Assembly: GCA_030429145.1 (NCBI GenBank)
Contig: JAUIDC010000001.1
Coordinates: 330,001 to 362,000, forward strand
Reading direction: 5' to 3'
Source: Candidatus Saccharimonadota bacterium
Lineage (GTDB): Bacteria; Patescibacteriota; Gracilibacteria; Absconditabacterales; Absconditicoccaceae
Length of the DNA stretch: 32,000 bases
Positions 1 through 29,871 of the stretch are shown in pieces (position 1 is the first letter of the stretch; each line of letters starts with the position of its first letter). The translations under genes and the position numbers were made by a program. Under the pieces are notes generated by a model, which did not search any database, had not been told where the DNA came from, and saw only the letters and a list, made by a program, of their open reading frames with translations.

Positions 1-892
<892 letters not shown>

Positions 893-1077
893 TGTCGTCT
901 TTTAAAAATATGATACGTTTATCTGTTAATGGTCCACATCTGCATCGCTAACATTCTAAAGCATAGAAAAGTCAGACACCCCTATATCTATTGCTAGGTA
1001 GAGAGGCCATCTGACCTTGTTCTCGTTAAAGAAAATCCTACGATTTATCTTGTTAGTTTTCTCGAGCAGTGACTACG

Positions 1078-2724: not shown

Positions 2725-2754
2725 CTCCGGCATGTCCGGAGCTTTTTCTTTTTT
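2725..2754 (+). terminator. Rho-independent terminator
   Basis: Stem CTCCGG (2725-2730) / CCGGAG (2736-2741) with a 5-nt loop, followed by CTTTTTCTTTTTT. Confidence 0.7.
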
Positions 2755-2781
2755 GACAATCATTTGCATTGGCTATATAAT
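2753..2781 (+). promoter_or_regulatory. Consensus sigma70 promoter for the pilin-like gene pair
   Basis: TTGACA (2753-2758), exactly 17 nt, TATAAT (2776-2781). Both hexamers are perfect. It sits 42 nt upstream of the ATG at 2823. Confidence 0.7.
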
Positions 2782-2822
2782 GTAGCTATATAGAGTATGT
2801 TATTATTACTATACGACAAAAA

Positions 2823-3302
2823 ATGATGAAAAAAATAATTGTGATATGTCTTGGGCTATATGTGTTATTGACTGGTAGTGCTTTTGCAACTGGAGTCACT
2901 AGCAGCAACAGCCGATGAGATAAATGATCCTCGCCGATAGAAATTTTGGACAACATCGCTGGAGAAGCAAATCAAGAGTACAGGATACAAGAGACCTCAC
3001 TCGATGGAGTCAATGACGATCAGTGAGCATTTGCCGCAAAATACAAGATGGCGAACACCCTCGACAGCATCAGAATAAAGATCGCTCCATATCTGCAGTG
3101 GGCGTTTTTCATTGGTCTAGGGCTGGCAGTCATATTGATCATATACAATGGCATACTTCTCATGACTGGAGCCGTCAGTGGCGAAGACTACAAAAAAGTG
3201 ATCGGCAGAATTAAAAACATCGGTATCGGCGTAGCGATACTCACATGATTTGCCATCATTATCAGACTATTCATCGCCATCCTCTCTTCTGCTCTCTCAT
3301 AA
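2823..3302 (+). CDS. Secreted T4SS-pilin-like (TrbC/VirB2-like) membrane protein, single module (159 aa, table 25)
   Basis: Signal peptide MMKKIIVICLGLYVLLTGSAFA. Then helix, polar loop, helix: ...AVILIIYNGILLMTGAVSGEDYKKVIGRIKNIGIGVAILTGFAIII. Four in-frame TGA read as Gly; TAA stop. Absorbs track ORF 3048-3248. Confidence 0.6.
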
Positions 3303-3340
3303 AAAACAACTCATAGATTACTTTATATATATTGAATATC

Positions 3341-4249
3341 ATGATTAAGAAGATTTTCCTTTGATGCGTAGCTGCCTGCCTCCTAGCCCTCAATGTCGCT
3401 CAGGCTGTACCTCCAACATTTGATCAACAAATTGGGAAGCCTCTCACTACCGACAACAGTGGCAACGACGAAACCGTCATCTCCCCAAATGCTTTTGGTA
3501 TTGATCCTAACAAAACTTTTAAAGAAAATATCTACAATCTTTTTTCACCACTCAACGACAACTCGGTCATCCGAAGAACTCTGAGAACTATCATGGTGGG
3601 TGTGCTTGTCCTTTATATTGCATGGGCCGGCATTGATATGATGCAACATGCAGCGGATGAAACAAGACAGAAAAGAGTCAGAAGAAGTTTCTTATATATT
3701 TGAGTTGGTGCCTTTATGATACGGTGAGCCACATGGATTCTCGGTACTGCTCTACAAGTCGGTACGGTACAAGGTACGCAGTGACTGGTAAGTAATTTAC
3801 AAAACAATGTGCTCTTCCAAATCCTCGCCTTCCTCAAGGGGCTCGCATTCTTCTATGCTATCGTCATGCTCATCTACTACGGCTTCCAGTTTATGAGAGC
3901 ACTTGAAGAAGAGTCAAAGATAAAGGCAGCTAGAACAGGTCTGATCAATGTGATCGTGGCGCTAGTACTTATCAAGATTATCGACTTTATCTTCTTCATC
4001 GCTCAGCAACAAGACTTTGGTTCAAGACTCCAAAACTTCCTTGTTGATGCAGCAAGAATCGCCGCATACGTTCTCTGAGCCGGTATGGTTCTCGCACTTA
4101 TCCGAGGTGGTGTCAGATATCTCACTTCACAAGGTGACGAGGAAAAAGTGAAAGACGCACAGAAGATCATTACAACTATCTTCTTCATTATACTTACCAT
4201 CTTCCTTTTCCTTCTTGTGGTCTATCAGTTGGTAGCCGAGTTTACGTAG
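3341..4249 (+). CDS. Secreted membrane protein with three tandem T4SS-pilin-like modules (302 aa, table 25)
   Basis: Signal peptide MIKKIFLGCVAACLLALNVAQA. Three helix-loop-helix units share one loop motif: AWAGIDMMQHAADETRQKRVRR, IYYGFQFMRALEEESKIKAART and LIRGGVRYLTSQGDEEKVKDAQK. The last resembles the GG.xY.TS.GD....AK motif I recall from CPR/Gram-positive T4SS pilin families. Five in-frame TGA; TAG stop. Absorbs track ORF 3809-4078. Confidence 0.6.
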
Positions 4250-4250
4250 T

Positions 4251-4277
4251 AAAAAAAGGAGCGGTTATTCCGCTCCT
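4251..4277. terminator. Shared terminator hairpin between convergent genes
   Basis: Stem GGAGCGG (4258-4264) / CCGCTCC (4270-4276) with a 5-nt loop. An A7 run lies immediately 5' on the plus strand, which gives a U-run for the minus-strand transcript. A T-run follows about 13 nt 3' on the plus strand. Confidence 0.65.
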
Positions 4278-4297
4278 GCATTCAAATATTTTTTTTC

Positions 4298-4708
4298 TTA
4301 GGCTTCTCCTTGAGGTGTTTTCATCATGGCAATCGATGCTTTCATTTTTTGCAGGAAAGAACCTACATTGTTTTCGAAAGTTACAAAGACTATTTCCATG
4401 AAATAAGTACCGAGCATGTGGGCAAGTCCACACAATAGCAGTAAACCCTCACTTTCCCTTACCAGCATCTCATCAGCCTCCAGTAATGGAACAACCTTGA
4501 CTGTAAACTGCGGATTGAGCAGGAAGCCGGCATATACCGCTTTTATCAGCCCAAGCAACCGAGCATCATGGACTTCTTTCCTCATCTCTTCAACAATTTC
4601 TAGGATATCCTTCTGTGCTTGCTTTGCTTCCTCGGTCCAATCAGAATGATCATCATTTAACTGGAGTGACCGCAAGACCTTTTCTTTTGTAATAGCAATT
4701 AATTTCAT
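4298..4708 (-). CDS. Hypothetical protein (136 aa)
   Basis: Open frame with a TAA stop. I placed the start at the ATG at 4708 (MKLIAITKEK...), because the longer track ORF (to 4909) would overlap the murF start. No motif recognised and no TGA codons. Confidence 0.5.
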   Translation of the reverse strand: MKLIAITKEKVLRSLQLNDDHSDWTEEAKQAQKDILEIVEEMRKEVHDARLLGLIKAVYAGFLLNPQFTVKVVPLLEADEMLVRESEGLLLLCGLAHMLGTYFMEIVFVTFENNVGSFLQKMKASIAMMKTPQGEA

Positions 4709-4830
4709 CAGTATGTGTTTTAGTGTGGCCAATATATTACACATGAATATCATTATGTCAATAGAATAAATCTTTTGCAATAACGTCAATGAATAGATAC
4801 ATTTTTGGTATTTAATTTTAGTAGCAAAGC

Positions 4831-6198
4831 ATGAAACAGAAAATATTACATATATTTTATAAACTCCTTGGGGCGCTCGCTCGCCGTTATCTGAAAAGGT
4901 GGAAGCCAATAGTAATTGGGATCAATGGAAGTGTTGGAAAGACCTCTTGCAGGATGATCATTACGGATATACTCAAGCACTATCTCCCTCACGATGAGAT
5001 TTACACTTCACCGAAGAATTTCAACGGCGAGCTTGGGATGTCGCTAGCCATTTTTAAGATAGAACATTGGTGAGCAAGTCGATCAGCGATGTTTGGTGCG
5101 CTATGGAAAACATTTGTGTTAGCATTTTTTTCAAGAAAGAAACCGTATGATGTGACCATTTTAGAGTATGGGATAGACACTCCTGGAGAGATGTCGTTTC
5201 TCCTCTCTATCGTGAAACCACACATTAGTGTGTTGACAAAAATAGACGCAGTGCACTCGCTCCAGTTTGGAAATCCGCAAGAGATCGCAAAAGAAGAGAC
5301 AAAGCTACAAGTATGAACACTAGAGACCTGCTTTATCAACGAGGATGACAGTTATGGACGCTCTTTACGCGACAAGGTGAATGTAGACATCTTGCGATAC
5401 GATACCAATGAATCTGACGACAAAGAGATTTCAGTAAGATACAATAACTATAAACTCGTTCCTCATGGGAAAACTATTGGGTCGTCGTCTGACATTGCCA
5501 TAGGTATCAAAAAACATCATATTACTACCAACATTCTCGGCAAGTTCAACCATGGGTATATCGCTGTTGGTCTTGCTATCGCAGACATTGTGCACCATAA
5601 GCTACATGGACAGGACTGCACACCTGCAGACGGCAAGACAAAACTAGACCTACACCTCCAAGCAGGCAGGATGACAGTCTTCGAAGGTATTCACAACAGT
5701 GTCATCATAGACAGCTCGTACAATGCATCTCCACTGAGCATGAAAGGAGCTATTAACGACCTTTATCGCATACAAAAAGAGGTTCTACCTGATCATAAGA
5801 TAGTTCTTGTCCTTGGTGACATGCGCGAGCTTGGCGAGTGGGAAGAGCAGCACCATCGCGAGTTGGCTGGATATCTATCGCAATATGGCGACACTATTAT
5901 GCTCCTTGGTGCTACGACAGGCAAATACACTGTTGATGAACTCAAAAAACTCTGATATCCTATGCAGAATGTGCACCATTTCACTCACTATGATAAGCTT
6001 GGTAGCGCTTTGAAAGAACTCCTTACAAATAATAGCGACGACAACTACCTCTTACTATTTAAGGGAAGTCAAAATACGATCTTCCTCGAAGAAGCCATCA
6101 AATATATCCTCCAGGATCCAATTGATGAAGAAAGACTAACGAGACAGTGAGATTGGCGAGCACAAAAGAAAGAATCTGTTATGAGAAACATAAGATAG
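4831..6198 (+). CDS. murF: UDP-N-acetylmuramoyl-tripeptide--D-alanyl-D-alanine ligase (MurF-type Mur ligase, 455 aa, table 25)
   Basis: Track ORFs 4831-5073, 5089-5316, 5377-5955 and 5962-6150 are all in one frame and joined by four TGA. Mur-ligase P-loop GINGSVGKTS; IIDSSYNASP and VLGDMRELG resemble the MurF motifs DDTYNANP and VLGDMLELG. TAG stop at 6196-6198. Confidence 0.8.
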
Positions 6199-8379: not shown

Positions 8380-8385
8380 CTTTTT

Positions 8386-8457
8386 TGGGTCGGGAGGGGA
8401 TCGAACCCTCGACCAGTGGCTTAAAAGGCCATTGCTCTACCACTGAGCTACCGACCC
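8386..8457 (-). tRNA. tRNA-Lys (anticodon UUU)
   Basis: The reverse complement GGGTCGGTAGCTCAGTGGTAGAGCAATGGCCTTTTAAGCCACTGGTCGAGGGTTCGATCCCCTCCCGACCCA folds as a cloverleaf. It has a 7-bp acceptor stem, D arm GCTC/GAGC, anticodon loop CTTTTAA and T arm GAGGG-TTCGATC-CCCTC. CCA is not encoded. Confidence 0.9.
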
Positions 8458-8460
8458 ACA

Positions 8461-14658: not shown

Positions 14659-16125
14659 CTAACCTTCAAATCCCTCTCCATAGAACATTTCTGCCTTATC
14701 GATTTCGATATCATGCTTATCATCTTTGTATATCTCTGTATCTTGTACAGAGTTTTTTTGATAACGCACAGCTCCTGAAAATGCACGAGAAGCGATCAGG
14801 AAATTACCCATCCTATTGAGATCTCTATCTCCTGACGAGACATACTTATACCATACCCCATCTGGCCAAGAGGCCAAAAGCGTATTCATAAGCGTATGAG
14901 AAAACTCTGTATCCATCTTTGTATCCATGATCATATTGAGCATTACATATTCGGAGAGCTGCGCAAGATCTGTAAAGAACTCGTGCGTGATAAGCTCTTC
15001 TGGGATAGATGTACCTATGTAGGCATCTACAAGTGTATAGTCATATCTTTTCTTATCAGCAAGCGACTCACGGATATATCCTCTTGCCGACTGAGCGGTG
15101 AAATGGATTTTTTCGTGAAGAGGCTTTTGTTGAAAATAGGTCTCAGCGATAGTTTTCACCGCAGGATCTACATCAATAGTATCGATACGTCCTACATACT
15201 CTCTCTGCGCCATCTCCTCTGGATACGTAAACCCCGCCGCTCAGATGACAAGAATGTTTTTCCTGTTCATGCTTGACGAAACAGTTGCCCGCATGTCAGT
15301 AGCTTGTATCGCTTCACGGATATAGCCAAACCAACTTTCACCCGTTTTTGTTTCTATAGAACTGGCAAATCCACCATTGAGCAACATCGTACGAAAGGTA
15401 CTCCCTCCATAGACATCTTCGCGAACAACGATATGTTGATAAGGACTATCGTATTCTACAAGCACAGCGCTTGTCTCAGTTTTAACAAGAGAGAACCAAC
15501 TGATAGCAACTAGTACAATAATGCCTGCCCATGGTATACGCTTCAGGTAGGCCATCATCAATATGTGACATAGGATAAGCAGGGTTGCTATCACATAGCC
15601 CGTCAACGTCACTCCTCGTCGAGAAAAAAGAACTGTACTCGTGAGTATGCTTCCTACAAATGATCAAAGTGTTGAAACAAATAGTATCTTTCCAGCAGCA
15701 AATCACTTATTACCCTTCGTCAATTCGGTAATCATCGGCATAGTGTGTGACGCAAGCACCACCGGTATGAAGAAAAATAAGAGAGAAAAGAGGAAAAGGG
15801 CAATGACATACGGGAATTGCTGGACAAAATCTACCAAAAACCTCTCCTGGAACGGAAAAACAAGGATTACATAATAGACTCCTGATGCAAAAAGAAACCA
15901 CGAGAGAACATGTGCAACCTGCTTGTCCTTCAAGCGAGAAGTGAGCTTCCCTCCGGTCCAATATCACACAGCTAAAGCAAGAAGAATGACTCATATTACA
16001 ACAGATGTCAATATAATACTTGATCATACGAGCGGTATGGCGTGCCTAAGGGCGACCATTTGCATAGCAAGTGTGGTAAATCACTCTATAAGAACAACGA
16101 GAAGAAGCAAGTAAGACATTGGCAT
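14659..16125 (-). CDS. Fused polytopic membrane domain / spermidine-synthase-like (class I MTase fold) protein (488 aa, table 25)
   Basis: One 489-codon frame with seven TGA read as Gly, joining track ORFs 14659-15213, 15241-15612 and 15703-15933 plus an upstream extension. About 190 aa of TM helices come first. Then SPYQHIVVRED...LLNGGFASS, NILVI-G-AAGF (SAM loop), IDTIDVDPAV...YF and YDYTLVDAY...IPEELITHEFF. The start at ATG 16125 is tentative. Confidence 0.7.
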
Positions 16126-16200
16126 CTGAAACAGTAAAAATTTACAATAACTCCTGTATAGAGAACTCTGAGAAAAAAACAACACGATTGGGGCAAAAAT

Positions 16201-16229
16201 TTGCAAAAAATGGCTTTCTGGAGTATAAT
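16201..16229 (+). promoter_or_regulatory. Near-consensus sigma70 promoter for the 764-aa gene
   Basis: TTGCAA (16201-16206), 17 nt, TATAAT (16224-16229), 43 nt upstream of the ATG at 16272. Confidence 0.6.
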
Positions 16230-16271
16230 TTAGATAGATATTTACCCTATTTGAAATAAAAAGAAAAACTG

Positions 16272-18566
16272 ATGGAAACGGCAATGCCAAGCGTAGATCG
16301 TGAAACGCAGCAGATCATAGCCACCTACCAAAAAATCTACAACCTTATTTTCAGATATGGGATTTTTATTGTACTTGGTGTTATCAGCTTTGGCGTGGTC
16401 CTTATGATAAATCCCCATGCCTACACCATCTACAATGTTGACAACACGTTTAGTAGCTCACAAGAAGAACTACAACCACTACTCCTCTCTGGAGACACAT
16501 ACATTGCAAAGGGAATAACACTTAATCCTCGTGTACCAGCAGATCAGATCAACGTATCAATCCTCCAAGGCTTCGTTGATGTCACTCCAGAAGTACAGAT
16601 GGGATATGGCGCACTTGCAAGCTACAAGGATATTATCTTGCCAATTTCTATCAACCTTGCAGCACATGATACCATCTTCTCAAAGGAGTATTTTTCATCA
16701 GCATACAATCCTGAGGACCTCAATGAGTACGTACAAAACACCATCCTTACCTATCCAGTAAGGAATATTCAAACGACGCTATACAGATACAAACAAGAGA
16801 CTGCAGCAGAAAACGCAAGAACGAGCGCCGACCCTATGCAACCAGAACTTCCACTAACAACTACCCTCCCCGTGGACAATACACAGATCACTCGCCACGA
16901 AGAGCCACCTCTTATCAGTCGTTTTGGACTACAGTGTCTCGGCAACCGTCACATTACCGATTTCTTCTGTCATAAAAACACAGAGGTATTTGTTTCTCGC
17001 ATACCATTTCTTTCGTTTGAAAACAAGCTAGAAGAGATGAGACTCCTTATGGATGACATCGCACAAACGCCATACAAGGAACGCGCTTGTAACAATCTTC
17101 TTTATGCTTTTGGTAGAACTGCACAAACAGACAGAGCGCGAGAGCTCATCTTCACGACTTGCTGACAACAGTACGTTTCATCATATCGTAGGATAGCCGA
17201 CTTCGCTACAGTCATCTTTGAACTACAGTGAATTTCAAATGCAAAGCTCTATACAGACAATGATATTAACATATTTAAACTGCTTTCACTACAACAAAAG
17301 ATCTACCACAATACCCTACAGAAAAACTACGATGTCGGAACTATCGAAGTATATCTCGCCTTTGTCCAAGAGCTCCTTATCAAAAGGCCGGAGATTGATC
17401 AAATCTACAAAGACATGACATATCTCTACAACAATACTTATCTCCGCGACACACTAACGCAAATAGCCATCATCAACAACAATACGAAAGCGATGCTCAG
17501 ACTGACCGACATCGTAAAGAATATCAACGAATGATCAGCTCAGCTACAAAAGTCTGTCGCAAATGCCGAACTGGTTGCCTATATTAGCGATACAACATCT
17601 ACAGCCAGCGCACAACAAAATCTCGTTACTTTCCAAGATCTCTTTGCAAGTAAGTTTACCACTTTTGATAACTTTATCGTCACGAGCCAGAAAGTCGACA
17701 ACGACTCTCTTTCTGCCAAGGTAGAAGGATACTTTATCATCAACGATGGAGAAGAAAGAAAGGTTCTTTTTGCAGGAGACTATCGTTATGACAATGAAAG
17801 CTTCATCCTTACTTACGCATCGTTTCCACAGAGCCCGTACCTAGAGACACTCCTCAATAGGCTCATCAATCAGCAGACGATGCAGGTAGACATCCCCTTT
17901 GTCTATGAGTTTGTCAAAAACAACTATGTAAATGCAAATCGTAGTGTCGCGCTCTGTGACATACTCTCTTCAAGAGTAAGCTTCGAATCATGTACCAACA
18001 CAAATGCTATCTATGACGATGGTCTCATCCGCATTATCTTTGTCTTTGACGGCTACAAGATCACGGCAATAAATAGTAACAAACCAGATCTTACAGAAAG
18101 ACTACGTACCGCAACGAGCAATGTGATCACGACACAAAACAATATCGGGGTCATCGTAAGCGAACTTATTAAATTAGCCAAAGAAGACAATACACAACCA
18201 GCACAGAGCGATGAACTCACGGGTAGCAGTGTCGACACAAATCAGTTTACCATTATCGGTAAGTTCAAACAGTTCCTTGACGTTACACCAGAGAGCATCA
18301 ACCTAAACAATGGGAACTATATCGTAGAATTTGAACTCTTCGGCATCAATTTCATCACCGCTGTGGACATTACCAACAACTATAAGCTATTCCCTATAGG
18401 TATCAAGAAGTCAGAGAGCGAGGTCATTAGGATCAACAACTTCTCTCTCAATCTTATCAATGCCTCCCTCACCGAAATCAACCAGTTTAAGGCAGATCCT
18501 TGGGCTCATATTAGGAAAGTAGACCCTGCCGCATATGAGAATGCTTATCCTAAAAACAATAACTAA
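16272..18566 (+). CDS. Large membrane-anchored hypothetical protein (764 aa, table 25)
   Basis: Track ORFs 16272-17165 and 17880-18566 share a frame. The 714 nt between them are open apart from three TGA. N-terminal TM anchor YGIFIVLGVISFGVVLMI. TAA stop followed by a terminator. No domain recognised. Confidence 0.65.
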
Positions 18567-21987: not shown

Positions 21988-22000
21988 CTCCTTTATATAA

Positions 22001-22447
22001 CTAGTTTATAGTTCCTCCTGCCTTTTCAATCTTCTCCTGTGCTGATTTTGAAACAGCATCCATTCCAGAGAAAGTAAGTTTTTTCTTCAATTCACCACTA
22101 CCAAGGATTTTTACTTTTTCTCCCTTGTTGAGGATACCTGCTTCAATAAGGGCCTCCTTTGTCACCTCTCCTGAGATCTTCTCATGCTCTTCAAGAACAG
22201 AAAGGTTTACTGGAGTATATTTATCCATCAGCTTGAAGTATCTCTTGAATCCTCTGAGCTTAGGCAATCTTTGGACTAAGGGAGTCTGTCCACCTTCAAA
22301 CCAGGCAGGCAGGCTAGCACCAGCTCTCTGACCAGTACCTTTATTACCTCTCCCTGATGTATTACCTCTTCCTGAACTGTCTCCTCTTCCTCTCTGGATT
22401 CTAGGATCTTTGAGGCCTTTACTTTTTTTCAATGTGTATCCGAACAT
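22001..22447 (-). CDS. rplO: 50S ribosomal protein L15 (uL15)
   Basis: RGRGDSSGRGNTSGRGNKGTGQRAG...FEGGQTPL.RRLPK.GF is the L15 signature. 148 aa. Confidence 0.92.
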   Translation of the reverse strand: MFGYTLKKSKGLKDPRIQRGRGDSSGRGNTSGRGNKGTGQRAGASLPAWFEGGQTPLVQRLPKLRGFKRYFKLMDKYTPVNLSVLEEHEKISGEVTKEALIEAGILNKGEKVKILGSGELKKKLTFSGMDAVSKSAQEKIEKAGGTIN

Positions 22448-22471
22448 GGTAACTTATCGGTAAATATAAAA

Positions 22472-23239
22472 CTATGATGATTTAGCAGTCTTCTTTGCAG
22501 GAGCCTTCTTTGGAGCTCCGCTATTAGATCTTGACCCAGGTTTTCTTCCTCCTGCTCTTCTTGTCTTCTCCTTCTCTTTTTCAGCTTTTTGTGCCGCGAT
22601 AGTCTCCGCTGTATTGTGCTCTGGAAGTGTTGATCTATCTACTTTGTATTGGCTAAGAGCCTGTATAGTCGCAAGCGCGTTATTTAACTTATTGTTTGTA
22701 CCCATAATCTTCGAAAGGATATTAGTATATCCTGCAAGCTCAGCAACTGAACGGAGCGCAGAACCCGCTTTCAAACCTGTACCAGGCGCAGCTGGTATGA
22801 TTCTAATGACAGCAGACTTATACTTGTGCGAAACAGTATATGGCACCGTTCCCGACTCTGTAATAGGTACTACCTTGATGTTCTTATAAGCCTCATGCGT
22901 TGCCTTTCTTACAGCAATCGACACATCAGAACCTTTTGCGATACCAAGACCTATCTTTCCTTTCTTATTACCAACAAGGATGATTGCTCTAAACGAAAGC
23001 TGACGTCCACCAGTATTTACTCTCGTCACTCTTCTTACTTCAAGCAAAAGCTCCTCAAACTCTTTCTTTGGTCTCTCTCTTCTCTCTCCTCTTTCTGGTC
23101 TGTCAGATCTACCACGCTTAGCGTTGTTCTTTTTCGTCGAAGTATCTGATGAGCCCTCAGAAGATGAACTAGCTTCAGCTTTCTGCTCAAGGTCCTTGTT
23201 CTCTTCCTGAGTTTCAGTTACTTTTTCTTCCGTAGACAT
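22472..23239 (-). CDS. rpsE: 30S ribosomal protein S5 (uS5) with N- and C-terminal low-complexity extensions (255 aa)
   Basis: S5 core LLEVRRVTRVNTGGRQLSFRAIILVGNKKGKIGLGIAKGSDVSIAVRKA...IIPAAPGTGLKAG. It is flanked by a ~60-aa charged N-terminal region and a ~50-aa Lys/Ala-rich tail. Confidence 0.92.
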   Translation of the reverse strand: MSTEEKVTETQEENKDLEQKAEASSSSEGSSDTSTKKNNAKRGRSDRPERGERRERPKKEFEELLLEVRRVTRVNTGGRQLSFRAIILVGNKKGKIGLGIAKGSDVSIAVRKATHEAYKNIKVVPITESGTVPYTVSHKYKSAVIRIIPAAPGTGLKAGSALRSVAELAGYTNILSKIMGTNNKLNNALATIQALSQYKVDRSTLPEHNTAETIAAQKAEKEKEKTRRAGGRKPGSRSNSGAPKKAPAKKTAKSS

Positions 23240-23280
23240 GTGTAGTGTAAACTATAAATTAAATATAATTATGATAATAG

Positions 23281-23640
23281 TTAGTTTTTAAGTCCTGCTT
23301 CATTGGCTCCGACAGACACACTTTTTACTCTTCCGTGATATCTCAGTCCGTTTCTATCAAACACGACCTCAGAGACACCATTCTCAATTGCCTTCTTTGC
23401 CACAGTCTTTCCTACCTCAAGAGCTTTTTCTGTCTTTGTCCCTTTCTTCATAGCTTTATCATTTGCTGAAGCGATAACCTTTCCAGAAAGATCAACCACT
23501 TGTGCGTATGTATAAAGGTTAGACTTATTGACAATAAGTCTTGGCAAAGAGCTTGTCGCCTTGATAGTAGTGTTTACTCTGTGTTTTCTTCTTGCATGTC
23601 TAGCAGCTTTGTTCTGCAATGCACGAGTAATATTTTTCAT
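23281..23640 (-). CDS. rplR: 50S ribosomal protein L18 (uL18)
   Basis: RRKHRVNTTIKATSSLPRLIV.KSN...YAQVVD...FDRNGLRYHGRVK..A.GA.EAGL. 119 aa. Confidence 0.92.
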   Translation of the reverse strand: MKNITRALQNKAARHARRKHRVNTTIKATSSLPRLIVNKSNLYTYAQVVDLSGKVIASANDKAMKKGTKTEKALEVGKTVAKKAIENGVSEVVFDRNGLRYHGRVKSVSVGANEAGLKN

Positions 23641-23682
23641 GTCTGTTATACAGATAACAATGATTAAAAAGATATAGTAAGA

Positions 23683-24228
23683 TTATTTCTTAGCAGCCTT
23701 TCCTGCCTTCATCTTCACTTGTTCTCCAAGGTATCTAATACCCTTGCCCTTATAAGGCTCTGGCTTTCTCAAGCTTCTGATCTTTGCAGCAGCTTCACCG
23801 ATACTCTCTTTATTAATACTTGTAAGCGTGATGATATCGTTACCTTTTGAGTCCTTGTCTACTGATGCCGCAACATCCTTAGGAAGCTTGAATACAACTG
23901 GGTGAGAAAACCCGAGGGCAAGCTGAATATTTTCACCCTGCACTTTTGCTGAGAAACCAACTCCGAGCACCTGCAACTTCTTCTCATAGCCAGCGCTCAC
24001 ACCCTCTACCATATTGGCAATAAGTGTTCTTGAAAGTCCCCAAAGGTTTTTCTTGCTGTCATCATCGATAGAAACCACTACCGCATCATCTTTTACCTCA
24101 GCATTTACACCCTCAAGCAATGTATATGAAAGAGTACCCTTACCCCCTTTAACTGACACCTCCTTACCATTGATGGTAACCTCAACGCCTGAAGGGATTG
24201 CGATACTTTTTTTACCTATTTTAGACAT
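23683..24228 (-). CDS. rplF: 50S ribosomal protein L6 (uL6)
   Basis: MSKIGKKSIAIPSGVEVTINGKEVSVKGGKGTLSY...LRKPEPYKGKGIRY.GE. 181 aa. Confidence 0.93.
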   Translation of the reverse strand: MSKIGKKSIAIPSGVEVTINGKEVSVKGGKGTLSYTLLEGVNAEVKDDAVVVSIDDDSKKNLWGLSRTLIANMVEGVSAGYEKKLQVLGVGFSAKVQGENIQLALGFSHPVVFKLPKDVAASVDKDSKGNDIITLTSINKESIGEAAAKIRSLRKPEPYKGKGIRYLGEQVKMKAGKAAKK

Positions 24229-24256
24229 TGTCGTATAAGTAGATAGTTAAAATAAA

Positions 24257-24661
24257 TTAGTAGATTTCTGCAATAAGCTCTCCTCCTATCTTTTTCTGTT
24301 TTGCCACATGGCTTGGCATCAATCCTTGAGATGTTGAGAGAATTCCTATACCGCGACCTGCAGCTACTGGCTTAATCTCCTTATATGAAATATACCAGCG
24401 TCTTGATGGTCTTGAGTAGAACTTAATAACTGGAATGTCATTAATTTCGTCCTCAACCTCCTTAAGATCAATAGAGATTGTTTTCTTATTGCCCTCTGAG
24501 GCTACATCATATCCTATGATAAAACCATACTGCTTTAGCAGCTCAAGTACGTTTACCTTAAAATTAGAATAAACGACACCGTCCACGCGAGTTCTTCTCG
24601 CCATGTACGCATTTTTTATTCTAATCAAGAGATCATGTATAGGAGCGTTTACAAAACTCAT
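24257..24661 (-). CDS. rpsH: 30S ribosomal protein S8 (uS8)
   Basis: PIHDLLIRIKNAYMARR... and a C-terminal GGELIAEIY. 134 aa. Confidence 0.92.
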   Translation of the reverse strand: MSFVNAPIHDLLIRIKNAYMARRTRVDGVVYSNFKVNVLELLKQYGFIIGYDVASEGNKKTISIDLKEVEDEINDIPVIKFYSRPSRRWYISYKEIKPVAAGRGIGILSTSQGLMPSHVAKQKKIGGELIAEIY

Positions 24662-24697
24662 GGAAATAGTTAACAGAAAAATATAAAGGAAAGATTT

Positions 24698-24922
24698 TTA
24701 CCAACTTGCTTTTTTCAAACCTACGATAAGTCACTCTCTCGCGTACTTTCTCAGGCATACTCTACAGATACCGAAGTCTCTGAAGTAACTATTAGCTCTT
24801 CCGCAAAGCTTACATCTGTTGTAATACTTTGTGGCATGCTTCATAGTTTTACCTTCCGCAAGAGCTTTCTCTCTACGAGCATTTAGTTTTGCTTGTTTCA
24901 CTTTTAGTGCATTTCTTGCCAT
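24698..24922 (-). CDS. rpsN: 30S ribosomal protein S14, zinc-binding type Z (uS14; 74 aa, table 25)
   Basis: CxxCGR...CRVC zinc knuckle. Reading TGA at 24731-24733 as Gly recovers the conserved tail ...[16 protein letters not shown] (compare G.IPGVKKASW), then TAA at 24698-24700. The track ORF stops 11 codons early. Confidence 0.92.
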
Positions 24923-24952
24923 GGATAGTGATTAGGATATGGTAGTAAAAGA

Positions 24953-25501
24953 TTATTTCTTCTCAACAAAGATGAACCCTAGTGCTTTCATAAGAGCAAT
25001 AGCATCTTCCTTTGTCTCAGCATTAGTCACAACATTGATTTGAACACCCATCGCTGCTTGTGTATCGTCTGCCATAAGCTCAGGGAAGATAGACTGTGTT
25101 GCAAGTCCGATGTTATAGTTATTATTTGGATCGAAACTCTTTGGATTGAGTCCAACGAAGTCTCTCACACGAGGCATAACGATAGTTGTTAGTTTATGTA
25201 AGAAGTCATACGCCTTGTCTTTTCTCAACGTCACCTTCAACATAACAGGCATATCCTCTCTCAATTTGAAGTTCGAGATCGCCTTCTTCGACTTAATCAT
25301 TACTGGCTTCTGTCCTGTGATAGACATAAGATTCTTCTCAAGGTCAGAGAAATCCTTCACGCCTTTTCTCGTTGCCAAAGAACCAATACCCACACTGACG
25401 ATAACCTTATCGATAGAAGGAACTTGGTGAATATTTTTCTTCTGCAATTCCTTTTGGAGCGCAGTCTTCTTTTCTGACTTATATTGTTGATAGATACTCA
25501 T
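24953..25501 (-). CDS. rplE: 50S ribosomal protein L5 (uL5)
   Basis: VPSIDKVIVSVGIG...; ...ISNFKLREDMPVMLKVTLR..KAYDFL.KL....PRVRDF.G. The ATG at 25501 is preferred over the track TTG at 25516. Confidence 0.9.
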   Translation of the reverse strand: MSIYQQYKSEKKTALQKELQKKNIHQVPSIDKVIVSVGIGSLATRKGVKDFSDLEKNLMSITGQKPVMIKSKKAISNFKLREDMPVMLKVTLRKDKAYDFLHKLTTIVMPRVRDFVGLNPKSFDPNNNYNIGLATQSIFPELMADDTQAAMGVQINVVTNAETKEDAIALMKALGFIFVEKK

Positions 25502-25533
25502 GGGGAGTAAATACAAAGTGATAAAGTAATAGT

Positions 25534-25824
25534 TTATTTGATAGCTTCTTTGCTTGTTTTCAGCACTCTCACTCTTTTTCCGTTTTTATCAGCGTCAATA
25601 CCTACTCTCGAAGCTTTCTTTGCTTTTTCATCATAGAGCGCAATGTTGGAAATATGTACAGGATGAATTTTATCTATGAACCCCTGTCATTTTACCGCCT
25701 TTTTCATCACATTGACTCCTTTTACGACAACCATGTCGCCGTTTACAGACTCAACCGTTGATGTTTTTCCCTTGAACTTACCGGCGATAACAACAACCGA
25801 ATCTCCTGCTTTGATCTTTTTCAT
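25534..25824 (-). CDS. rplX: 50S ribosomal protein L24 (uL24; 96 aa, table 25)
   Basis: MKKIKAGDSVVVIAGKFKGKTSTV (KOW motif). Reading TGA at 25687-25689 gives ...KKAVK-G-QGFIDKIHPVHISNIALYD. TAA stop at 25534-25536. Confidence 0.9.
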
Positions 25825-25873
25825 AATTGGATCGTAGTATACAAGTAAATAGTATGATAGATATATGAAACTG

Positions 25874-26242
25874 TTATATAACCTCCTCTGCAAGAGTAGC
25901 AACGTCCTTGAAGCCAACATCTCTTAGCTCTTTTGCCACAGGACCGAAGATTCTCTTCCCGATTGGTTCATCATCCTCGTCAATAAGAGCAACCGCATTG
26001 TCGTCAAATCTAAGGTATGTACCATCTTTTCTTCTTACTTCTTTCTTCGTTCTGACAACAACAGCTCTCGCAGTGTCACCCTTCTTAAATGAAGAGCTCG
26101 GTGAGGCAGTCTTGATAGCGACCTTTACTCTATCTCCGATAGTTGCTTTGTCTGACATAGATCCCTTGAGGATACCTATGACCTGTGCAACCTTTGCTCA
26201 GCTGTTATCAGCAACGATAACTTTTGATTGTCTTTGTAACAT
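25874..26242 (-). CDS. rplN: 50S ribosomal protein L14 (uL14; 122 aa, table 25)
   Basis: The true N-terminus MLQRQSKVIVADNS-G-AKVAQVIGILKGS is recovered by reading TGA at 26198-26200 as Gly (consensus MIQ..S.L.VADNSGAK). The track ORF starts 28 codons late. Confidence 0.93.
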
Positions 26243-26273
26243 TGTGACAATAAGTAATAATGATAATAAATGA

Positions 26274-26537
26274 TTATACTGCCTGACCGACAACTTCTAC
26301 CAACGCCCATCTTTTAGTCTTGCTGCGTGGATTGTCCTGTCTGATTCTTACAGTATCTCCTGCTTTCGCTGTATTCTCAGCATCGTGAGCGTAGTATTTC
26401 TTTCTTACAGTAAATCTTTTTCTGTAGAGCGGATGCTGCTTGACAGTCTTTGTCATCACAACGATGGTTTTATCCATCTTGTCGCTCACTACTGTACCTA
26501 CAAGCTCTTTGATACTTTTTCCTCCGATAATAGCCAT
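26274..26537 (-). CDS. rpsQ: 30S ribosomal protein S17 (uS17)
   Basis: [14 protein letters not shown]......HPLYRK......KYYAHDE.N.AK.GD.V.I....P.SK.KRW. 87 aa. The start overlaps the rpmC stop by 1 nt (TAATG). Confidence 0.92.
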
Positions 26538-26749
26538 TATTGAGCGAGAGATTTAGAAGATAAAGCGGTATTTACCCTTGCAATGTTTCTTCTGACAGCA
26601 CGAATCTGGTGCGTCTCTTTCAATGCTTTCACATGATTTTTCATCTGAAGCGAAAAGAGCTGCTTTCTAAGATCGTTACGAAGCGCAACAAGATCTTTAT
26701 ATGATTTCTCTGTCAGATCATTCATAAGGAGTTTTTCTTTCTTTGCCAT
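26537..26749 (-). CDS. rpmC: 50S ribosomal protein L29 (uL29)
   Basis: 70 aa and helical, with ...LR..LF.L+M+......+.TH.IR.VRR.IAR..T. It sits between rplP and rpsQ. Confidence 0.88.
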
Positions 26750-26786
26750 TTTATAGTAATGGTTTCTAAGACAATAAAACAGATTG

Positions 26787-27209
26787 TTATCTTACTTCAC
26801 CTTTTTCTACCATCCTGGTAGTCATAGGAAGCTTATACGATGCCTTCTTGAATGCCTCTTCAGCTATTTCTCTGTCGAGCCCACTCACCTCAAAAAGGAT
26901 TCCTCCTTTTTTTACTCTTGCCTGGTAGTGATCTACGTCACCCTTACCAGAACCCATCGGCATTTCAAGCCCCTTCTTCGTGTATGGAACATCCGGGAAG
27001 ACTCTAAACCAGATCTTACCAACCTTTCTTGTATATCTTACGATAACCTTTCTGGCTGCTTCGAGCTGTCTGTTGCTGACGTAGGCACTTGTAGTGGCTT
27101 TCAGTCCATATTCACCAAAAGCAACTTTATTACCTCTTGTCGCCGCACCAGTGATACGCCCTCTCATTTGTTTTCTATATTTCCATCTCTTTGGAGTTAA
27201 GATAGACAT
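26787..27209 (-). CDS. rplP: 50S ribosomal protein L16 (uL16)
   Basis: L.PKR.KYRK..RGR..G.A.RGN.VAFGEYGL+A.....++.RQ+EAAR. 140 aa. Confidence 0.94.
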   Translation of the reverse strand: MSILTPKRWKYRKQMRGRITGAATRGNKVAFGEYGLKATTSAYVSNRQLEAARKVIVRYTRKVGKIWFRVFPDVPYTKKGLEMPMGSGKGDVDHYQARVKKGGILFEVSGLDREIAEEAFKKASYKLPMTTRMVEKGEVR

Positions 27210-27248
27210 CGTAATATTGTGCTATATATAAACTAAATGTGTGAGATA

Positions 27249-27950
27249 TTATTGCATAATTTTTTTCATCGCTTGTTGTTTTTTCACCTCATTAGAGTCT
27301 GTATTGTTCCCTTTCAATTTCACGAGCGTGTCACCCTTTGAGATCCAGACCTTGATACCAATGATTCCGTATTTTGTAAGAGCCGTTGTATAATGATAGT
27401 CGATATCAGATCTTAACGTTTGAAGAGACACTCTTCCTTCTGAGAACTTTTCTGTTCTTGAAAGGTCTACACCACCAAGACGTCCAGATACCTGAACTTT
27501 CACACCAGTCGCACCCTTCTCCATAACTTTCTGGAGAACCATCTTAGCAACGCGTCTAAATGGCATACGAGCCTCTATCTGCTGAGCAGCAAACTCACCC
27601 ATAATCTTAGCCGACAATTCAGGAAGTCTTACATCTTTAAGCACCACCTTGAACTCACGACCGAACCTCTTTTGCAGAAGCTTCGAAAACGACTCCAGCT
27701 TACTTCCCTCTTTACCAAGGATAAGCGCAGGCTTAGCTGTAAAGATGATGACCTCTCCCTCTTTCTCAGTCTTTCTGATAACCACTTTTGCGATACCAGC
27801 TCTGACGAAAGTTTCGTCGATCAATCTTCTGATTTGAATATCCTCTACGAAGAACTGAGCACCTTGTCCTCTTGTTTTAGCGAACCACTCCGACGGCCAC
27901 GTCTTAGTAATACCAGCTCTTAGTCCTCTAGGATCTGCTTTTTGTCACAT
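27249..27950 (-). CDS. rpsC: 30S ribosomal protein S3 (uS3; 233 aa, table 25)
   Basis: ATG at 27950..27948 is followed immediately by TGA (27947..27945), giving M-G-QKADPRGLRAGITKTWPSEWFA, the universal S3 N-terminus MGQK..P.G.RLGI...W.S.W+A. The track ORF starts 42 codons late at a TTG. Confidence 0.93.
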
Positions 27951-27961
27951 GAAATGAAGGA

Positions 27962-28300
27962 TTATTTATTATCTAAAACTACTCTTACAAATGCTCTATG
28001 TTTCACGTATCCGTGAATTCTTGATCTTGCTACAAATCTACTTCTCTTCAACTTTGGTCCGCGACCCACAGTGATATGTGAGATATAGAGCGTTTGTGCA
28101 TTCTGTCCAGCATTGTTTACTGCATTTGCCTGTGCTGACTTGATCACCTTCCAAAGCATTTTTGCAGAAGCTTTTGGCGTATGCTCAAGGATAGTGAGTG
28201 CCTCATCGACATTCTTTCCTTGTACGAGCTTTGCCACAAGCTGCATCTTCTTGTAAGATGTGAGCGCATATTTCAGTGTTGCTGTAAGACTTTTATTCAT
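27962..28300 (-). CDS. rplV: 50S ribosomal protein L22 (uL22)
   Basis: ...KM.LVA.L++GK.V.EAL.IL......K.A......+KSA.ANA.NN...........V..GP.LKR...RA.GR. 112 aa. Confidence 0.92.
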   Translation of the reverse strand: MNKSLTATLKYALTSYKKMQLVAKLVQGKNVDEALTILEHTPKASAKMLWKVIKSAQANAVNNAGQNAQTLYISHITVGRGPKLKRSRFVARSRIHGYVKHRAFVRVVLDNK

Positions 28301-28336
28301 GATAACAACAATTATTGAACCAATAAAACAGTAGAA

Positions 28337-28594
28337 TTAGAACGGATGTCCTCTAAATGATCTTGTCAGTACAAACTCTCCGAGTCTATGACCAATCATT
28401 TCTTCATTGATATAGAGACTAACAAAGCTTTTACCGTTGTGGACAGCCAATGTGAAACCAACCATCTCAGGAGTGATCTGGCTTGCTCTGTCCCACACCT
28501 TAATTACCTTTTTATCTCCGCTTGCTGTCATCTTTTCTATCTTTTTAGCAAGCTTCTCGTTGACGTAAAAGCCTTTTTTTAGCGATCTTGTCAT
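28337..28594 (-). CDS. rpsS: 30S ribosomal protein S19 (uS19)
   Basis: [11 protein letters not shown]...L..K+.........IK.W.R.S.I.PEMVG.T.AVHNGK.F..+.I.E.M+GH+LGEF. 85 aa. Confidence 0.94.
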
Positions 28595-28627
28595 GTAAAC
28601 AATATAGACAAATAAATGAGATATATG

Positions 28628-29473
28628 TTAGTTCTTCGTTCTCTTCGAAACGATGAATTTCGTTGACCATTTCTTCTTGCTTCTTGTTTTCTTTCCGAGC
28701 GGCACTGGACGTCCATTGAAGGCCTTCGGGAATCTCAGACCAATCTCGGCATGTCCTTCTCCACCACCATGAGGATGGTCTACCGGATTCATAGACTTAC
28801 CAAGTACGTGAGGTTTAATACCCTTCCATCTCTGTCTTCCAGCCTTACCGATAACGATGTTTTTATGATCTTCGTTACCAAGTTGACCAATAGTAGCAAA
28901 ACATTTTTCATCGAACTTTCTTACCTCTCCAGACGGCATCTTAATAAACACCAACTGCTGACCCTCATCTTTACCGACAATCTCTCCATACAAACCAGCC
29001 GACTTGATCACCTTTCCTTTCGTGAAAGGCGTAAACTCAAGATTGAATATCTGAAACCCTTCTGGAATGTCTTTCAGTTGCTTTCTGTTTCCAGAAGTCA
29101 AAGCAGCCTGATCACCAGTCATGAAGCTATCTCCTACCGCGATACCTTTCCAAGCAAGCACATATCTTTTCTCTCCATCTGCAAAGCTTACAAGAGCGAT
29201 ACGAACAGTTCTGTACGGATCATATTCGATAGCAGTCACTTTTGCAGGTATATTCATTTTGTCATACCCTCTAAAGTCAACTATACGATAGAGCTTCTTG
29301 TGTCCTCCCCCTCTAAATCTCGATGTCGTTCTACCATACTGGTTTCTTCCAGCAGTAGAACCAATCGTCTTAGTGAGAGATTTCTCTGGTCTCTTCTTTG
29401 TGATATCAGAAAAGTCATATCCTACCATAGAACGTCTTGAGGGAGTGTATGGTTTATACGTTTTCACAGCCAT
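28628..29473 (-). CDS. rplB: 50S ribosomal protein L2 (uL2)
   Basis: MAVKTYKPYTPSRR......RGGGHKK.YR.+DF.R...........IEYDP.R.A.IAL...DGEKRY.LA; MNPVDHPHGGGEG. 281 aa. Confidence 0.95.
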   Translation of the reverse strand: MAVKTYKPYTPSRRSMVGYDFSDITKKRPEKSLTKTIGSTAGRNQYGRTTSRFRGGGHKKLYRIVDFRGYDKMNIPAKVTAIEYDPYRTVRIALVSFADGEKRYVLAWKGIAVGDSFMTGDQAALTSGNRKQLKDIPEGFQIFNLEFTPFTKGKVIKSAGLYGEIVGKDEGQQLVFIKMPSGEVRKFDEKCFATIGQLGNEDHKNIVIGKAGRQRWKGIKPHVLGKSMNPVDHPHGGGEGHAEIGLRFPKAFNGRPVPLGKKTRSKKKWSTKFIVSKRTKN

Positions 29474-29523
29474 AATTACGAGAGTTACGTTGATGATAAA
29501 TAGAAGTTATTTTTGAATAGTGA

Positions 29524-29871
29524 TTAGTCTGCTAGAGATATTTTGTCTCCTTTTTTAAGAGAAACAACAGCCTTTTTGTAAGAGCGTCTTACCAGACTTC
29601 TATTTGCTCTCCCCTTCTCTTTTACCCAAGAGATATTTACAGAAGACGGAGTTACATTGTACACAGTCTGGATAGCCTGCTTCACATCAATCTTGTTTGC
29701 ATCAGAGTGTACTTTGAACATGTACTTGTGAGCACCATCTCCTTCTGTTCCCGCATATGCTTTTTCAGTCACAAGCGGAGCAAGGATGATCTGATACGGA
29801 CTGAGCTTAGCAAGAGCTTTTGGCGATGAAGCCTTTTTTGCTCTCTGTCTGAGTATTTGCTTAAATGTCAT
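29524..29871 (-). CDS. rplW: 50S ribosomal protein L23 (uL23)
   Basis: ...ILAPLVTEKA......KY.FKV...ANK..+K.A+..+Y.V....VN... I chose the ATG at 29871. The alternative ATG at 29913 would overlap the rplD 3' end by 11 nt. Confidence 0.85.
   Translation of the reverse strand: MTFKQILRQRAKKASSPKALAKLSPYQIILAPLVTEKAYAGTEGDGAHKYMFKVHSDANKIDVKQAIQTVYNVTPSSVNISWVKEKGRANRSLVRRSYKKAVVSLKKGDKISLAD

What the first reader, a model, noticed from the sequence alone, without database searches (positions are those of the whole stretch)
2753..4277. Consensus-promoter-driven pair of secreted T4SS-pilin-like proteins, the second an in-frame triplication of the pilin module
Two adjacent genes (2823-3302 and 3341-4249) each start with a cleavable-looking signal peptide. 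They are built from the same unit: a hydrophobic helix, a short loop with G-x3-(M/L/Y)-x4-(D/E)(D/E)-x2-K-x3-(K/R), then a second hydrophobic helix. The first gene has one unit and the second has three in tandem. The loops are IYNGILLMTGAVSGEDYKKVIGR, AWAGIDMMQHAADETRQKRVRR, IYYGFQFMRALEEESKIKAART and LIRGGVRYLTSQGDEEKVKDAQK. The last closely resembles the GGxxYxTSxGD....AK motif I recall from TrbC/VirB2-like T4SS pilins of CPR and Gram-positive bacteria. A covalently triplicated pilin-like protein is not something I know to be described. It could be a polyprotein cut into subunits or a fixed trimeric membrane scaffold. The pair sits behind a perfect TTGACA-17-TATAAT promoter, yet the window holds no VirB4, VirB6, VirD4 or relaxase.
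Basis: partly seen in the sequence, partly recalled or inferred. Interest (0 to 1): 0.65.

Follow-up and report, generated by a model that had tools for sequence, protein, structure and literature searches.

The report
Fused triple pilin-like membrane protein pair
Two co-transcribed genes in an ultra-small (CPR) bacterium encode membrane proteins built from the hairpin unit of type IV secretion pilins, one copy in the first and three fused copies in the second; the 1+3 pair is conserved across the lineage, but fused pilin units turn out to be common in related bacteria.

Summary
The window uses genetic code 25 (TGA = Gly). Gene A (2823-3302, 159 aa) and gene B (3341-4249, 302 aa) follow a 12/12 consensus promoter (2753-2781) and lie between two terminator-like hairpins. 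Both start with Sec-type signal peptides.

B matches Pfam PF18895 (T4SS_pilin) above its cutoff in three stretches. A falls just below the cutoff. All six module pairs are related in profile-profile tests.

The 1+3 pair recurs in 44 of 50 species-level genomes of Absconditabacterales/SR1/Gracilibacteria-type bacteria, with the same gene boundaries. The three modules are distinct, ordered types (B1-B2-B3), and more distant standard-code relatives keep that order. The triplication is therefore ancient, not an artefact of TGA read-through.

Proteins with 2 to 11 fused modules are frequent in CPR metagenomes, although I found no paper describing them.

No T4SS gene lies in the window. In relatives, a PrgI/VirB3-like gene lies within 10 kb of the pair in 21 of 50 loci, and a coupling-protein-like ATPase abuts it in one.

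Most likely these are T4SS pilin-family membrane subunits, with B working as an uncleaved hetero-trimeric unit. The mechanism is inferred, not shown.

The parts
2725..2741 (+). Terminator-like hairpin with a T-run. It closes the upstream 83-aa ORF (2448-2699) and insulates the pair.
2753..2781 (+). Sigma-70-type promoter TTGACA-17-TATAAT (12 of 12). The -10 element ends 41 nt before the A start codon.
   Evidence: In orthologs, 17 of 35 A-upstream regions score at least 10 of 12 against 7.6% of background windows, mostly 28-43 nt before the start codon.
2823..3302 (+). Gene A, 159 aa under code 25, with four in-frame TGA = Gly codons. It has a signal peptide, a conserved extracellular region of about 60 aa, and one pilin-type hairpin.
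2823..2888 (+). Signal peptide of A (aa 1-22, ...GSAFA|TG).
   Evidence: Read from the sequence. Ala22 is at least 90% conserved.
3078..3299 (+). Pilin module of A (aa 86-159).
   Evidence: PF18895 at 24.4-25.8 bits, E about 1e-5. hhalign to B1, B2 and B3 gives 84-93% probability.
3341..4249 (+). Gene B, 302 aa under code 25, with five in-frame TGA = Gly codons. It has a signal peptide, a conserved extracellular region of about 50 aa, and three pilin-type hairpins.
3341..3406 (+). Signal peptide of B (aa 1-22, ...NVAQA|VP).
   Evidence: Read from the sequence.
3566..3751 (+). Module B1 (aa 76-137; helices 76-102 and 107-137).
3776..4006 (+). Module B2 (aa 146-222). It is the most conserved module and holds invariant F170, F171, N203, K212 and D215.
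4016..4246 (+). Module B3 (aa 226-302). It is the most canonical pilin-like module, with the loop GGVRYLTSQGDEEKVKDAQK.
4257..4277 (.). GC-rich hairpin between B and the convergent minus-strand ORF. A T-run follows directly on the minus strand and after about 12 nt on the plus strand, so it is probably a bidirectional terminator.

Best explanation
A and B form a two-gene operon under a strong sigma-70-type promoter in a code-25 CPR bacterium related to Absconditabacterales. Both proteins are exported by Sec. After signal-peptide removal they sit in the cytoplasmic membrane as VirB2-like helix-loop-helix hairpins (Pfam PF18895), one in A and three in B. The short K/R-rich loops face the cytoplasm and the termini and linkers face outward.

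B descends from an ancient in-frame triplication. Its modules have diverged into three ordered, orthologously conserved types (B1-B2-B3).

The pair most likely supplies the pilin-type subunits of the Patescibacteria-type type IV secretion system, whose genes are scattered in these genomes. I infer that B works as an intact chain, at least across modules 2 and 3. It would be a fixed hetero-trimeric pilin unit serving as a base, an adaptor or a three-subunit building block, and A would be its single-hairpin partner.

Shown: gene structure, family membership, the repeat, conservation of the pair and the promoter. Inferred: topology, T4SS dependence, absence of cleavage, and the roles of A and B.
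For: Family: B scores 42.2 bits against PF18895 (cutoff 26.6) in three stretches. Single modules score 17-25 bits. There are sub-threshold TrbC/VirB2 hits (18.7 bits) and sub-threshold hits to the Mycoplasma ICE pilin-like family NF045849 (33.7 bits against 40).

Repeat.

Fold: three hairpins at pLDDT 80.1.

Conservation: about 55 full-length ortholog clusters. There are 50 species-level genome loci, and 44 have a one-module gene directly upstream of the three-module gene.

Module order: B1-B2-B3 is kept in distant relatives, including standard-code ones. Module 2 has invariant intramembrane K212 and D215 and is the most conserved part. This fits a machine component better than a variable surface subunit.

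Junction 2 has no signal-peptidase-like site.

T4SS link: a PrgI (PF12666)-like gene lies within 10 kb of the pair in 21 of 50 loci. All nine members tested score 19.5-22.8 bits over model positions 16-88 of 91. A TrwB/TraG-type coupling-protein-like ATPase lies directly upstream of A in L046.

Literature: PF18895/VirB2-like pilins were found in 1,948 Patescibacteria assemblies and lie near virB4 in only 1,135 of them. The pilin genes in the S. epibionticum T4SS cluster are essential. Two genomes of class JAEDAM01, the class the paper assigns Ca. Vampirococcus lugosii to, are listed as VirB4-positive.
Against: - No T4SS gene lies in the 32-kb window, and the PrgI-like gene is absent from it.
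- Every PrgI match is below Pfam's cutoff.
- The coupling-protein-like neighbour occurs in only 1 of 50 loci.
- No sequence or fold match to any solved pilin or VirB6 was found.
- No CPR T4SS pilus has been seen experimentally, and PF18895 was named by homology only.
- Junction 1 carries a conserved (I/V)-Q-G|(S/T) motif after a helix running inside to outside, so one processing event cannot be excluded.
- I could not verify that the window's own genome encodes VirB4.
Confidence: 0.55

Rival explanations
1. Polyprotein. B is cut on the outer face of the membrane, for example by signal peptidase I, into separate single-hairpin pilins. The fusion would serve only to deliver them in fixed stoichiometry.
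For: The second helix of each module runs from inside to outside, as a signal peptide does. Junction 1 has a conserved ...(I/V)QG|(S/T)... motif, with Gly at -1 in 35 of 36 sequences and an aliphatic residue at -3, about 7 residues after the hydrophobic core. Known VirB2/TrbC pilins are proteolytically matured (established knowledge).
Against: Junction 2 has D, N, E or Q at -1 in many orthologs (the window has ...QQQD|F) and an aromatic residue at -3 of the alternative ...YIA|Q site. The fixed B1-B2-B3 order persists over deep divergence. No protease gene is associated with the pair.
Confidence: 0.15
2. Not a secretion-system part. The hairpin is a general CPR membrane-anchor or scaffold module, and the A-B pair has a housekeeping envelope role independent of any T4SS.
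For: The pair sits among housekeeping genes that differ between lineages: murF, rpsO/S1, topA and dnaK. In other CPR genomes the same module forms the N-terminal anchor of PKD-repeat surface proteins of 383 to 1530 aa. The pilin function of PF18895 is untested. None of the contigs examined for distant multi-module proteins carried virB4.
Against: The profile relationship to TrbC/VirB2 and to a conjugative-element pilin-like family. PrgI-like and coupling-protein-like neighbours in relatives. Pilin genes inside the essential T4SS cluster of S. epibionticum.
Confidence: 0.2
3. VirB6 surrogate. B is a pilin-derived six-helix platform that takes the place of the polytopic VirB6/TrbL subunit and nucleates assembly of A.
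For: B is about 300 aa with six transmembrane helices and an outward-facing N-terminus, like VirB6. Module 2 has invariant polar intramembrane residues. A and B are paired one to one as genes. The survey reports no recognisable VirB6 in class Gracilibacteria.
Against: B has no profile or fold similarity to VirB6. The survey statement concerns GTDB class Gracilibacteria, which may not include this lineage. Relatives carry two three-module genes side by side, or variable module numbers.
Confidence: 0.1

Closest known systems
VirB2-like pilin gene arrays of Patescibacteria T4SS (S. epibionticum ML1 cluster SEML1_0006-0019; the TM7x 'Sec secreted array'; PF18895)
   Same: The same Pfam family and the same signal peptide plus hairpin design. 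Several divergent paralogous modules sit side by side. The host is a monoderm CPR bacterium, and no relaxase is present.
   Different: Those arrays hold 2-11 separate genes, often near virB4. Here three modules are fused in one reading frame next to one separate module, far from virB4, in a fixed 1+3 layout conserved across a whole lineage.
Classical conjugative pilins VirB2/TrbC/TraA (PF04956)
   Same: A cleavable leader and two hydrophobic helices joined by a short charged loop. The inferred membrane topology has the loop on the inside.
   Different: Those are single-module proteins encoded inside T4SS operons of diderm bacteria. The PF04956 score here is below the cutoff (18.7 against 27.9 bits), and no match to a solved pilin structure was found.
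Homopolymeric poly-pilins of other CPR bacteria (for example P0101 with 8 modules, P0102 with 6, P0143 with 11)
   Same: Covalent in-frame repeats of the same module behind one signal peptide.
   Different: Their modules are mostly copies of the generic B3-like type, and module number varies. They lie in pilin-gene arrays, some followed by PKD-repeat surface proteins.
Mycoplasma ICE pilin-like protein family Mbov_0395 (NCBIfam NF045849)
   Same: A profile match in three stretches of B. It belongs to a monoderm conjugation-type system related to the Patescibacteria T4SS.
   Different: That protein is an 80-aa single module. The score here is below the cutoff (33.7 against 40 bits).
VirB6/TrbL polytopic T4SS membrane subunit
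   Same: About 300 aa with at least five transmembrane helices.
   Different: No sequence or structural similarity was detected.

Membership tests
Pfam PF18895 T4SS_pilin | Profile score at or above the gathering threshold (26.6 bits) | tested here: met
   B scores 42.2 bits, E 8.7e-11, in three stretches. A scores 24.4 bits, just below the threshold. A orthologs score 14.2-27.4, and one scores above it.
Pfam PF18895 T4SS_pilin | Two hydrophobic helices joined by a short charged loop, preceded by a signal peptide | tested here: met
   Hydropathy. AlphaFold2 hairpins with pLDDT 85-93 in the helices. A-x-A signal-peptide ends read from the sequence.
VirB2/TrbC conjugative pilin (PF04956) | Profile score at or above the gathering threshold (27.9 bits) | tested here: not met
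   The best score is 18.7 bits, E 0.002, for module B1. An A ortholog scores 18.8 bits.
VirB2/TrbC conjugative pilin (PF04956) | Encoded within a T4SS gene cluster with VirB4 | tested here: not met
   No T4SS gene lies in the window. No VirB4 was recognised near the pair in the relatives' loci that were annotated. A PrgI-like gene lies near the pair in 21 of 50 loci and a coupling-protein-like gene in 1 of 50.
VirB2/TrbC conjugative pilin (PF04956) | Polymerises into an extracellular pilus together with phospholipid | not testable with these tools
   This needs cryo-EM or cryo-ET of a cultivated relative.
VirB2/TrbC conjugative pilin (PF04956) | Structural similarity to solved pilins | tested here: inconclusive
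   Foldseek of the whole three-module model finds nothing (best E about 1). PDB profile searches find nothing. A single hairpin was not searched on its own.
VirB6/TrbL | Profile or fold similarity to VirB6/TrbL | tested here: not met
   No Pfam hit at E up to 10. No Foldseek match.
NCBIfam NF045849 Mbov_0395 pilin-like conjugal transfer protein | Score at or above the curated cutoff (40 bits) | tested here: not met
   33.7 bits, E 2.2e-8, in three stretches.
Conserved A+B (1+3 module) cassette of code-25 CPR bacteria (defined here) | A one-module gene directly upstream of a three-module gene with B1-B2-B3 order | tested here: met
   The window. 44 of 50 genome loci. Five further metagenome contexts.

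The most novel reading that the evidence does not exclude
B is never cleaved. It acts as a covalent hetero-trimer of pilin hairpins, either as a pilin-derived membrane platform that stands in for VirB6 or as a pre-assembled three-subunit block of the filament. Fused poly-pilins with 3 to 11 modules would then be a general, so far undescribed way in which CPR bacteria build their essential T4SS appendage.
Probability: 0.2. Interest if true: 0.75.

Novelty: new variant of a known kind. Interest (0 to 1): 0.5.

Why it matters
The Patescibacteria T4SS is the first T4SS reported to be essential for its bearer. It is unusual among monoderm systems in carrying VirB2-like pilins, yet no pilus has been seen and its function is unknown.

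All characterised VirB2-type pilins are single hairpins. Covalently fused pilin units would constrain how such a filament or channel can be built. One example is a deeply conserved hetero-triplication (B1-B2-B3) paired with one single-hairpin gene.

These proteins give concrete targets for proteomics and cryo-EM in the few cultivated Absconditabacteria.

The work also exposes a practical problem. Public protein sets translate these genomes with TGA = Trp or as a stop codon. That breaks or distorts such genes, which may explain why surveys counted pilin genes rather than modules.

Tried and rejected
- Foldseek of both AlphaFold2 models against the PDB returned only generic helical proteins (14-3-3, TRP and ABC transporters) at E of 0.7 or worse and TM of 0.24 or less. 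I discarded these results.
- PDB sequence-profile searches with the full-length alignment and with a single-module alignment found nothing, or a spurious TATA-binding-protein hit.
- The first structure prediction used a 25-sequence alignment and was too weak to interpret (pLDDT 63.6). An 80-sequence alignment raised this to 80.1.
- The 2026 preprint on a novel CPR pilus describes Ig-fold, donor-strand-exchange pilins and is unrelated.
- The Vampirococcus paper mentions no T4SS, and the Gracilibacteria metaproteomics paper adds nothing specific.
- The three polytopic membrane genes and the T2SSE ATPase upstream of the pair in L005 have no Pfam identity and are not widely conserved there.
- Most large ORFs near the pair in relatives looked like housekeeping enzymes by eye and were not scanned.
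- I tried to cross-check VirB4 presence for the genomes carrying the pair in the survey's Table S1. This failed because the stored file is truncated.
- A lipoprotein reading of B's N-terminus was rejected. The Cys at position 9 lies too early in the peptide and is not conserved.

Full report
**Genetic code and gene structure**

Under the standard bacterial code the region is broken into short ORFs. Reading TGA as a sense codon doubles the number of ORFs of at least 150 aa, from 19 to 38, and raises their summed length from 4195 to 10109 aa.

Gene A runs from 2823 to 3302 (159 aa, four in-frame TGA). Gene B runs from 3341 to 4249 (302 aa, five in-frame TGA). At six of these nine positions, at least 30 of 35 orthologs have glycine, encoded interchangeably by GGN or TGA. 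TGA therefore means Gly here (code 25).

The public protein database holds the window's B protein with Trp at these sites (P0001, 98% identical to my translation). The source contig is 936,577 bp long.

**Transcription unit**

A terminator-like hairpin with a T-run (2725-2741) follows the upstream 83-aa ORF. A 12/12 TTGACA-17-TATAAT promoter lies at 2753-2781. A second GC-rich hairpin (4257-4277) separates B from a convergent ORF.

A and B are 38 nt apart, and the scan found no plus-strand terminator between them.

Upstream of 35 A orthologs, 17 have a match of at least 10 of 12 to the promoter consensus, against 7.6% of random 160-nt windows from the same loci. Most of these matches lie 28-43 nt before the start codon. 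The promoter is thus a recurrent feature at this position, although 18 of the 35 score lower.

**The proteins**

Both begin with a basic n-region, a hydrophobic core and an A-x-A end (A: GSAFA|TG; B: NVAQA|VP). This is read from the sequence; no predictor was available.

Hydropathy shows two strongly hydrophobic helices in A and six in B.

B matches Pfam PF18895 (T4SS_pilin) at 42.2 bits, above the 26.6-bit cutoff, in three stretches. A scores 24.4 bits. Isolated modules score 17-25.8 bits. Module B1 also touches PF04956 (TrbC/VirB2) at 18.7 bits, below that family's cutoff.

NCBIfam gives a sub-threshold three-stretch match to the Mycoplasma ICE pilin-like family NF045849 (33.7 bits against a cutoff of 40).

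**The internal repeat**

Single-sequence alignments against shuffles give z = 3.0-4.9 for five of the six module pairs and 1.2 for B1-B3. Profile-profile comparison of module sub-alignments gives 84-97% probability and E from 8e-6 to 5e-10 for all six pairs. The N-terminal regions of A and B are unrelated.

All four module types align in register around one invariant glycine at the end of helix 1 (A G110; B G97, G181, G257).

AlphaFold2 with an 80-sequence alignment gives pLDDT 80.1 and pTM 0.52. It shows three helix-short loop-helix hairpins at 76-137, 146-222 and 226-301.

The loops hold 3-5 Lys/Arg each, and the linkers hold 0-2. This fits loops facing the cytoplasm and termini facing outward. 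The topology is an inference.

**Conservation**

A word-indexed search finds 32 relatives of 166-323 aa (full-length ones are 287-323 aa) down to 34% identity. An exhaustive profile search of 1.84 billion representatives finds 2779 hits at E of 1e-3 or better, including about 55 full-length ortholog clusters.

A scan of one genome per species finds 50 loci. They are labelled Absconditabacterales, SR1, Gracilibacteria, Ca. Vampirococcus lugosii or, by automatic naming, Peribacteria. The closest is 71% identical.

I translated these loci with code 25 and scanned them with a module HMM. In 44 of the 50, a one-module gene lies directly upstream of the three-module gene. Only the fragmentary locus L062 shows an extra module-bearing ORF within 10 kb.

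Of the six loci without the full pair, four begin at a contig end. One (L062) is fragmentary. One (V. lugosii, L050) truly lacks an adjacent A gene.

Five further metagenome contexts show the same pair.

The neighbouring genes vary between lineages: murF and a glycosyltransferase (as in the window), rpsO and S1, topA, or dnaK.

**Age and nature of the triplication**

All three modules are conserved position by position across orthologs. Module 2 is the most conserved (mean top-residue frequency 0.70). It holds invariant F170, F171, N203, K212 and D215, the last two inside a transmembrane helix.

I scored the modules of distant three-module proteins against separate B1, B2 and B3 HMMs. This gives the collinear order B1-B2-B3 for P0139, P0144, P0157, P0160, P0171, P0178, P0159 and P0177. 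One of these, P0159, was checked and translates correctly under the standard code.

The fusion therefore does not depend on TGA read-through, and it appears to predate the divergence of these lineages.

**Fused pilins are not unique to this locus**

The same profile search recovers proteins with four to eight or more modules. Loci from standard-code CPR genomes show varied modules per gene:
- L011: 1, 2, 2, 6 and 1
- L012: 3, 3, 1 and 1 (the last two fused to PKD repeats of 1530 and 703 aa)
- L063: 8, 1, 1 (fused to PKD), then a PKD protein
- L065: 3 and 3
- L066: 11

These longer proteins are mostly repeats of the generic B3-like module. That points to a separate, homopolymeric amplification.

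**Literature**

The Patescibacteria T4SS survey used PF18895 and found VirB2-like pilins in 1,948 assemblies, near virB4 in 1,135 of them. It also found 441 arrays of 2-11 separate pilin genes.

The pilin genes in the S. epibionticum T4SS cluster are essential.

Term searches in these papers and in the library found no description of fused multi-module pilins.

**Link to a T4SS**

The window has no T4SS gene. In relatives there are two contextual links.

First, in about 18 loci the order is tm147 > tm321 > A > B > rpsO > S1. The tm147 protein matches PF12666 PrgI (VirB3-like) in all nine members tested, at 19.5-22.8 bits over model positions 16-88 of 91. All these scores are below the 27-bit cutoff. 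The tm147 gene lies within 10 kb of the pair in 21 of 50 loci. The tm321 protein is a BatA-like membrane VWA protein.

Second, in L046 an 823-aa membrane ATPase lies directly upstream of A. It matches the coupling-protein domain PF10412 above its cutoff (23.4 bits against 20.5) and TraG-D_C below its cutoff. It occurs in only that one locus.

The survey's Table S1 lists two genomes of class JAEDAM01, the class the paper assigns V. lugosii to, as VirB4-positive. I could not check the window's own genome.

**Cleaved or intact?**

Junction 1 has a conserved ...(I/V)QG|(S/T)... motif about seven residues after a helix that runs from inside to outside. This is compatible with a signal-peptidase-I site.

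Junction 2 has D, N, E or Q at -1 in many orthologs (the window has ...QQQD|F). The alternative ...YIA|Q site has an aromatic residue at -3.

Complete processing into three pilins is therefore not supported by sequence. A single cut after module 1 cannot be excluded.

**Verdict**

The A+B pair is a deeply conserved, strongly promoted 1+3 cassette of VirB2-like hairpins.

It is best read as a new variant of the known Patescibacteria pilin arrays. Here three diverged modules are permanently fused and paired with a single-module gene. The mechanism is inferred, not shown.

Covalent fusion of this module is widespread in CPR bacteria but appears undescribed in the searchable literature. That is the most interesting outcome.

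Noticed in passing
L012:2639-11199; L063:9925-16481 (also L064): In standard-code CPR contigs, poly-pilin genes are followed by PKD-repeat surface proteins of 383 to 1530 aa whose N-terminus carries one pilin module. This was seen twice independently. It suggests the module anchors adhesin-like proteins, or incorporates them into the same structure.
   Followed up: partly
L018:1965-3464 and about 17 further loci (for example L024, L029, L034): A PrgI/VirB3-like 147-aa membrane protein and a BatA-like membrane VWA protein lie directly upstream of the A-B pair on the same strand. They may form a four-gene unit in that sub-clade. Both are absent from the window.
   Followed up: partly
L046:6512-8983 (and 3354-5366): An 823-aa membrane ATPase matching the T4SS coupling-protein domain lies directly upstream of A. 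A 670-aa M23 peptidase with a long coiled coil lies two genes further up and could be a cell-wall hydrolase of the same system.
   Followed up: partly
L050:7880-10750: Ca. Vampirococcus lugosii has the three-module gene but no adjacent one-module gene. An AT-rich spacer of about 290 nt precedes B. Whether A lies elsewhere in that genome is unknown.
   Followed up: partly
L005:6154-9419; also L041, L052, L059: Polytopic membrane proteins of unknown function (about 381, 441 and 252 aa), with no Pfam match, precede the pair in L005. The 441-aa type appears to recur near the pair in about six loci. A T2SSE-type ATPase lies next to them on the other strand.
   Followed up: no
window 1-896 (- strand): The 5' part of a 23S rRNA gene (Rfam 680 bits), cut by the window edge. 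It explains the higher GC content and the spurious ORFs there.
   Followed up: yes
window 8385-8458 (- strand): tRNA-Lys (UUU), found by both ARAGORN and Rfam.
   Followed up: yes
window 16272-18566 (+): A 764-aa ORF with one N-terminal transmembrane helix and no Pfam match, probably a large surface protein of unknown function. It overlaps by 19 nt the start of a divergent 543-aa ORF, a multi-helix membrane protein with a methyltransferase-like domain (14659-16290, - strand).
   Followed up: no
P0001 and most database relatives: The public protein collection holds these code-25 proteins translated with TGA = Trp, or cut at TGA (many fragments of 55-170 aa). This inflates Trp content, fragments genes, and could make surveys undercount or miscount such proteins.
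   Followed up: partly
window 22000-32000 (- strand): ORFs that by eye resemble ribosomal proteins and SecY, in the order typical of the ribosomal-protein cluster; they were not scanned. This appears ordinary and places the pair in a core-genome region.
   Followed up: no
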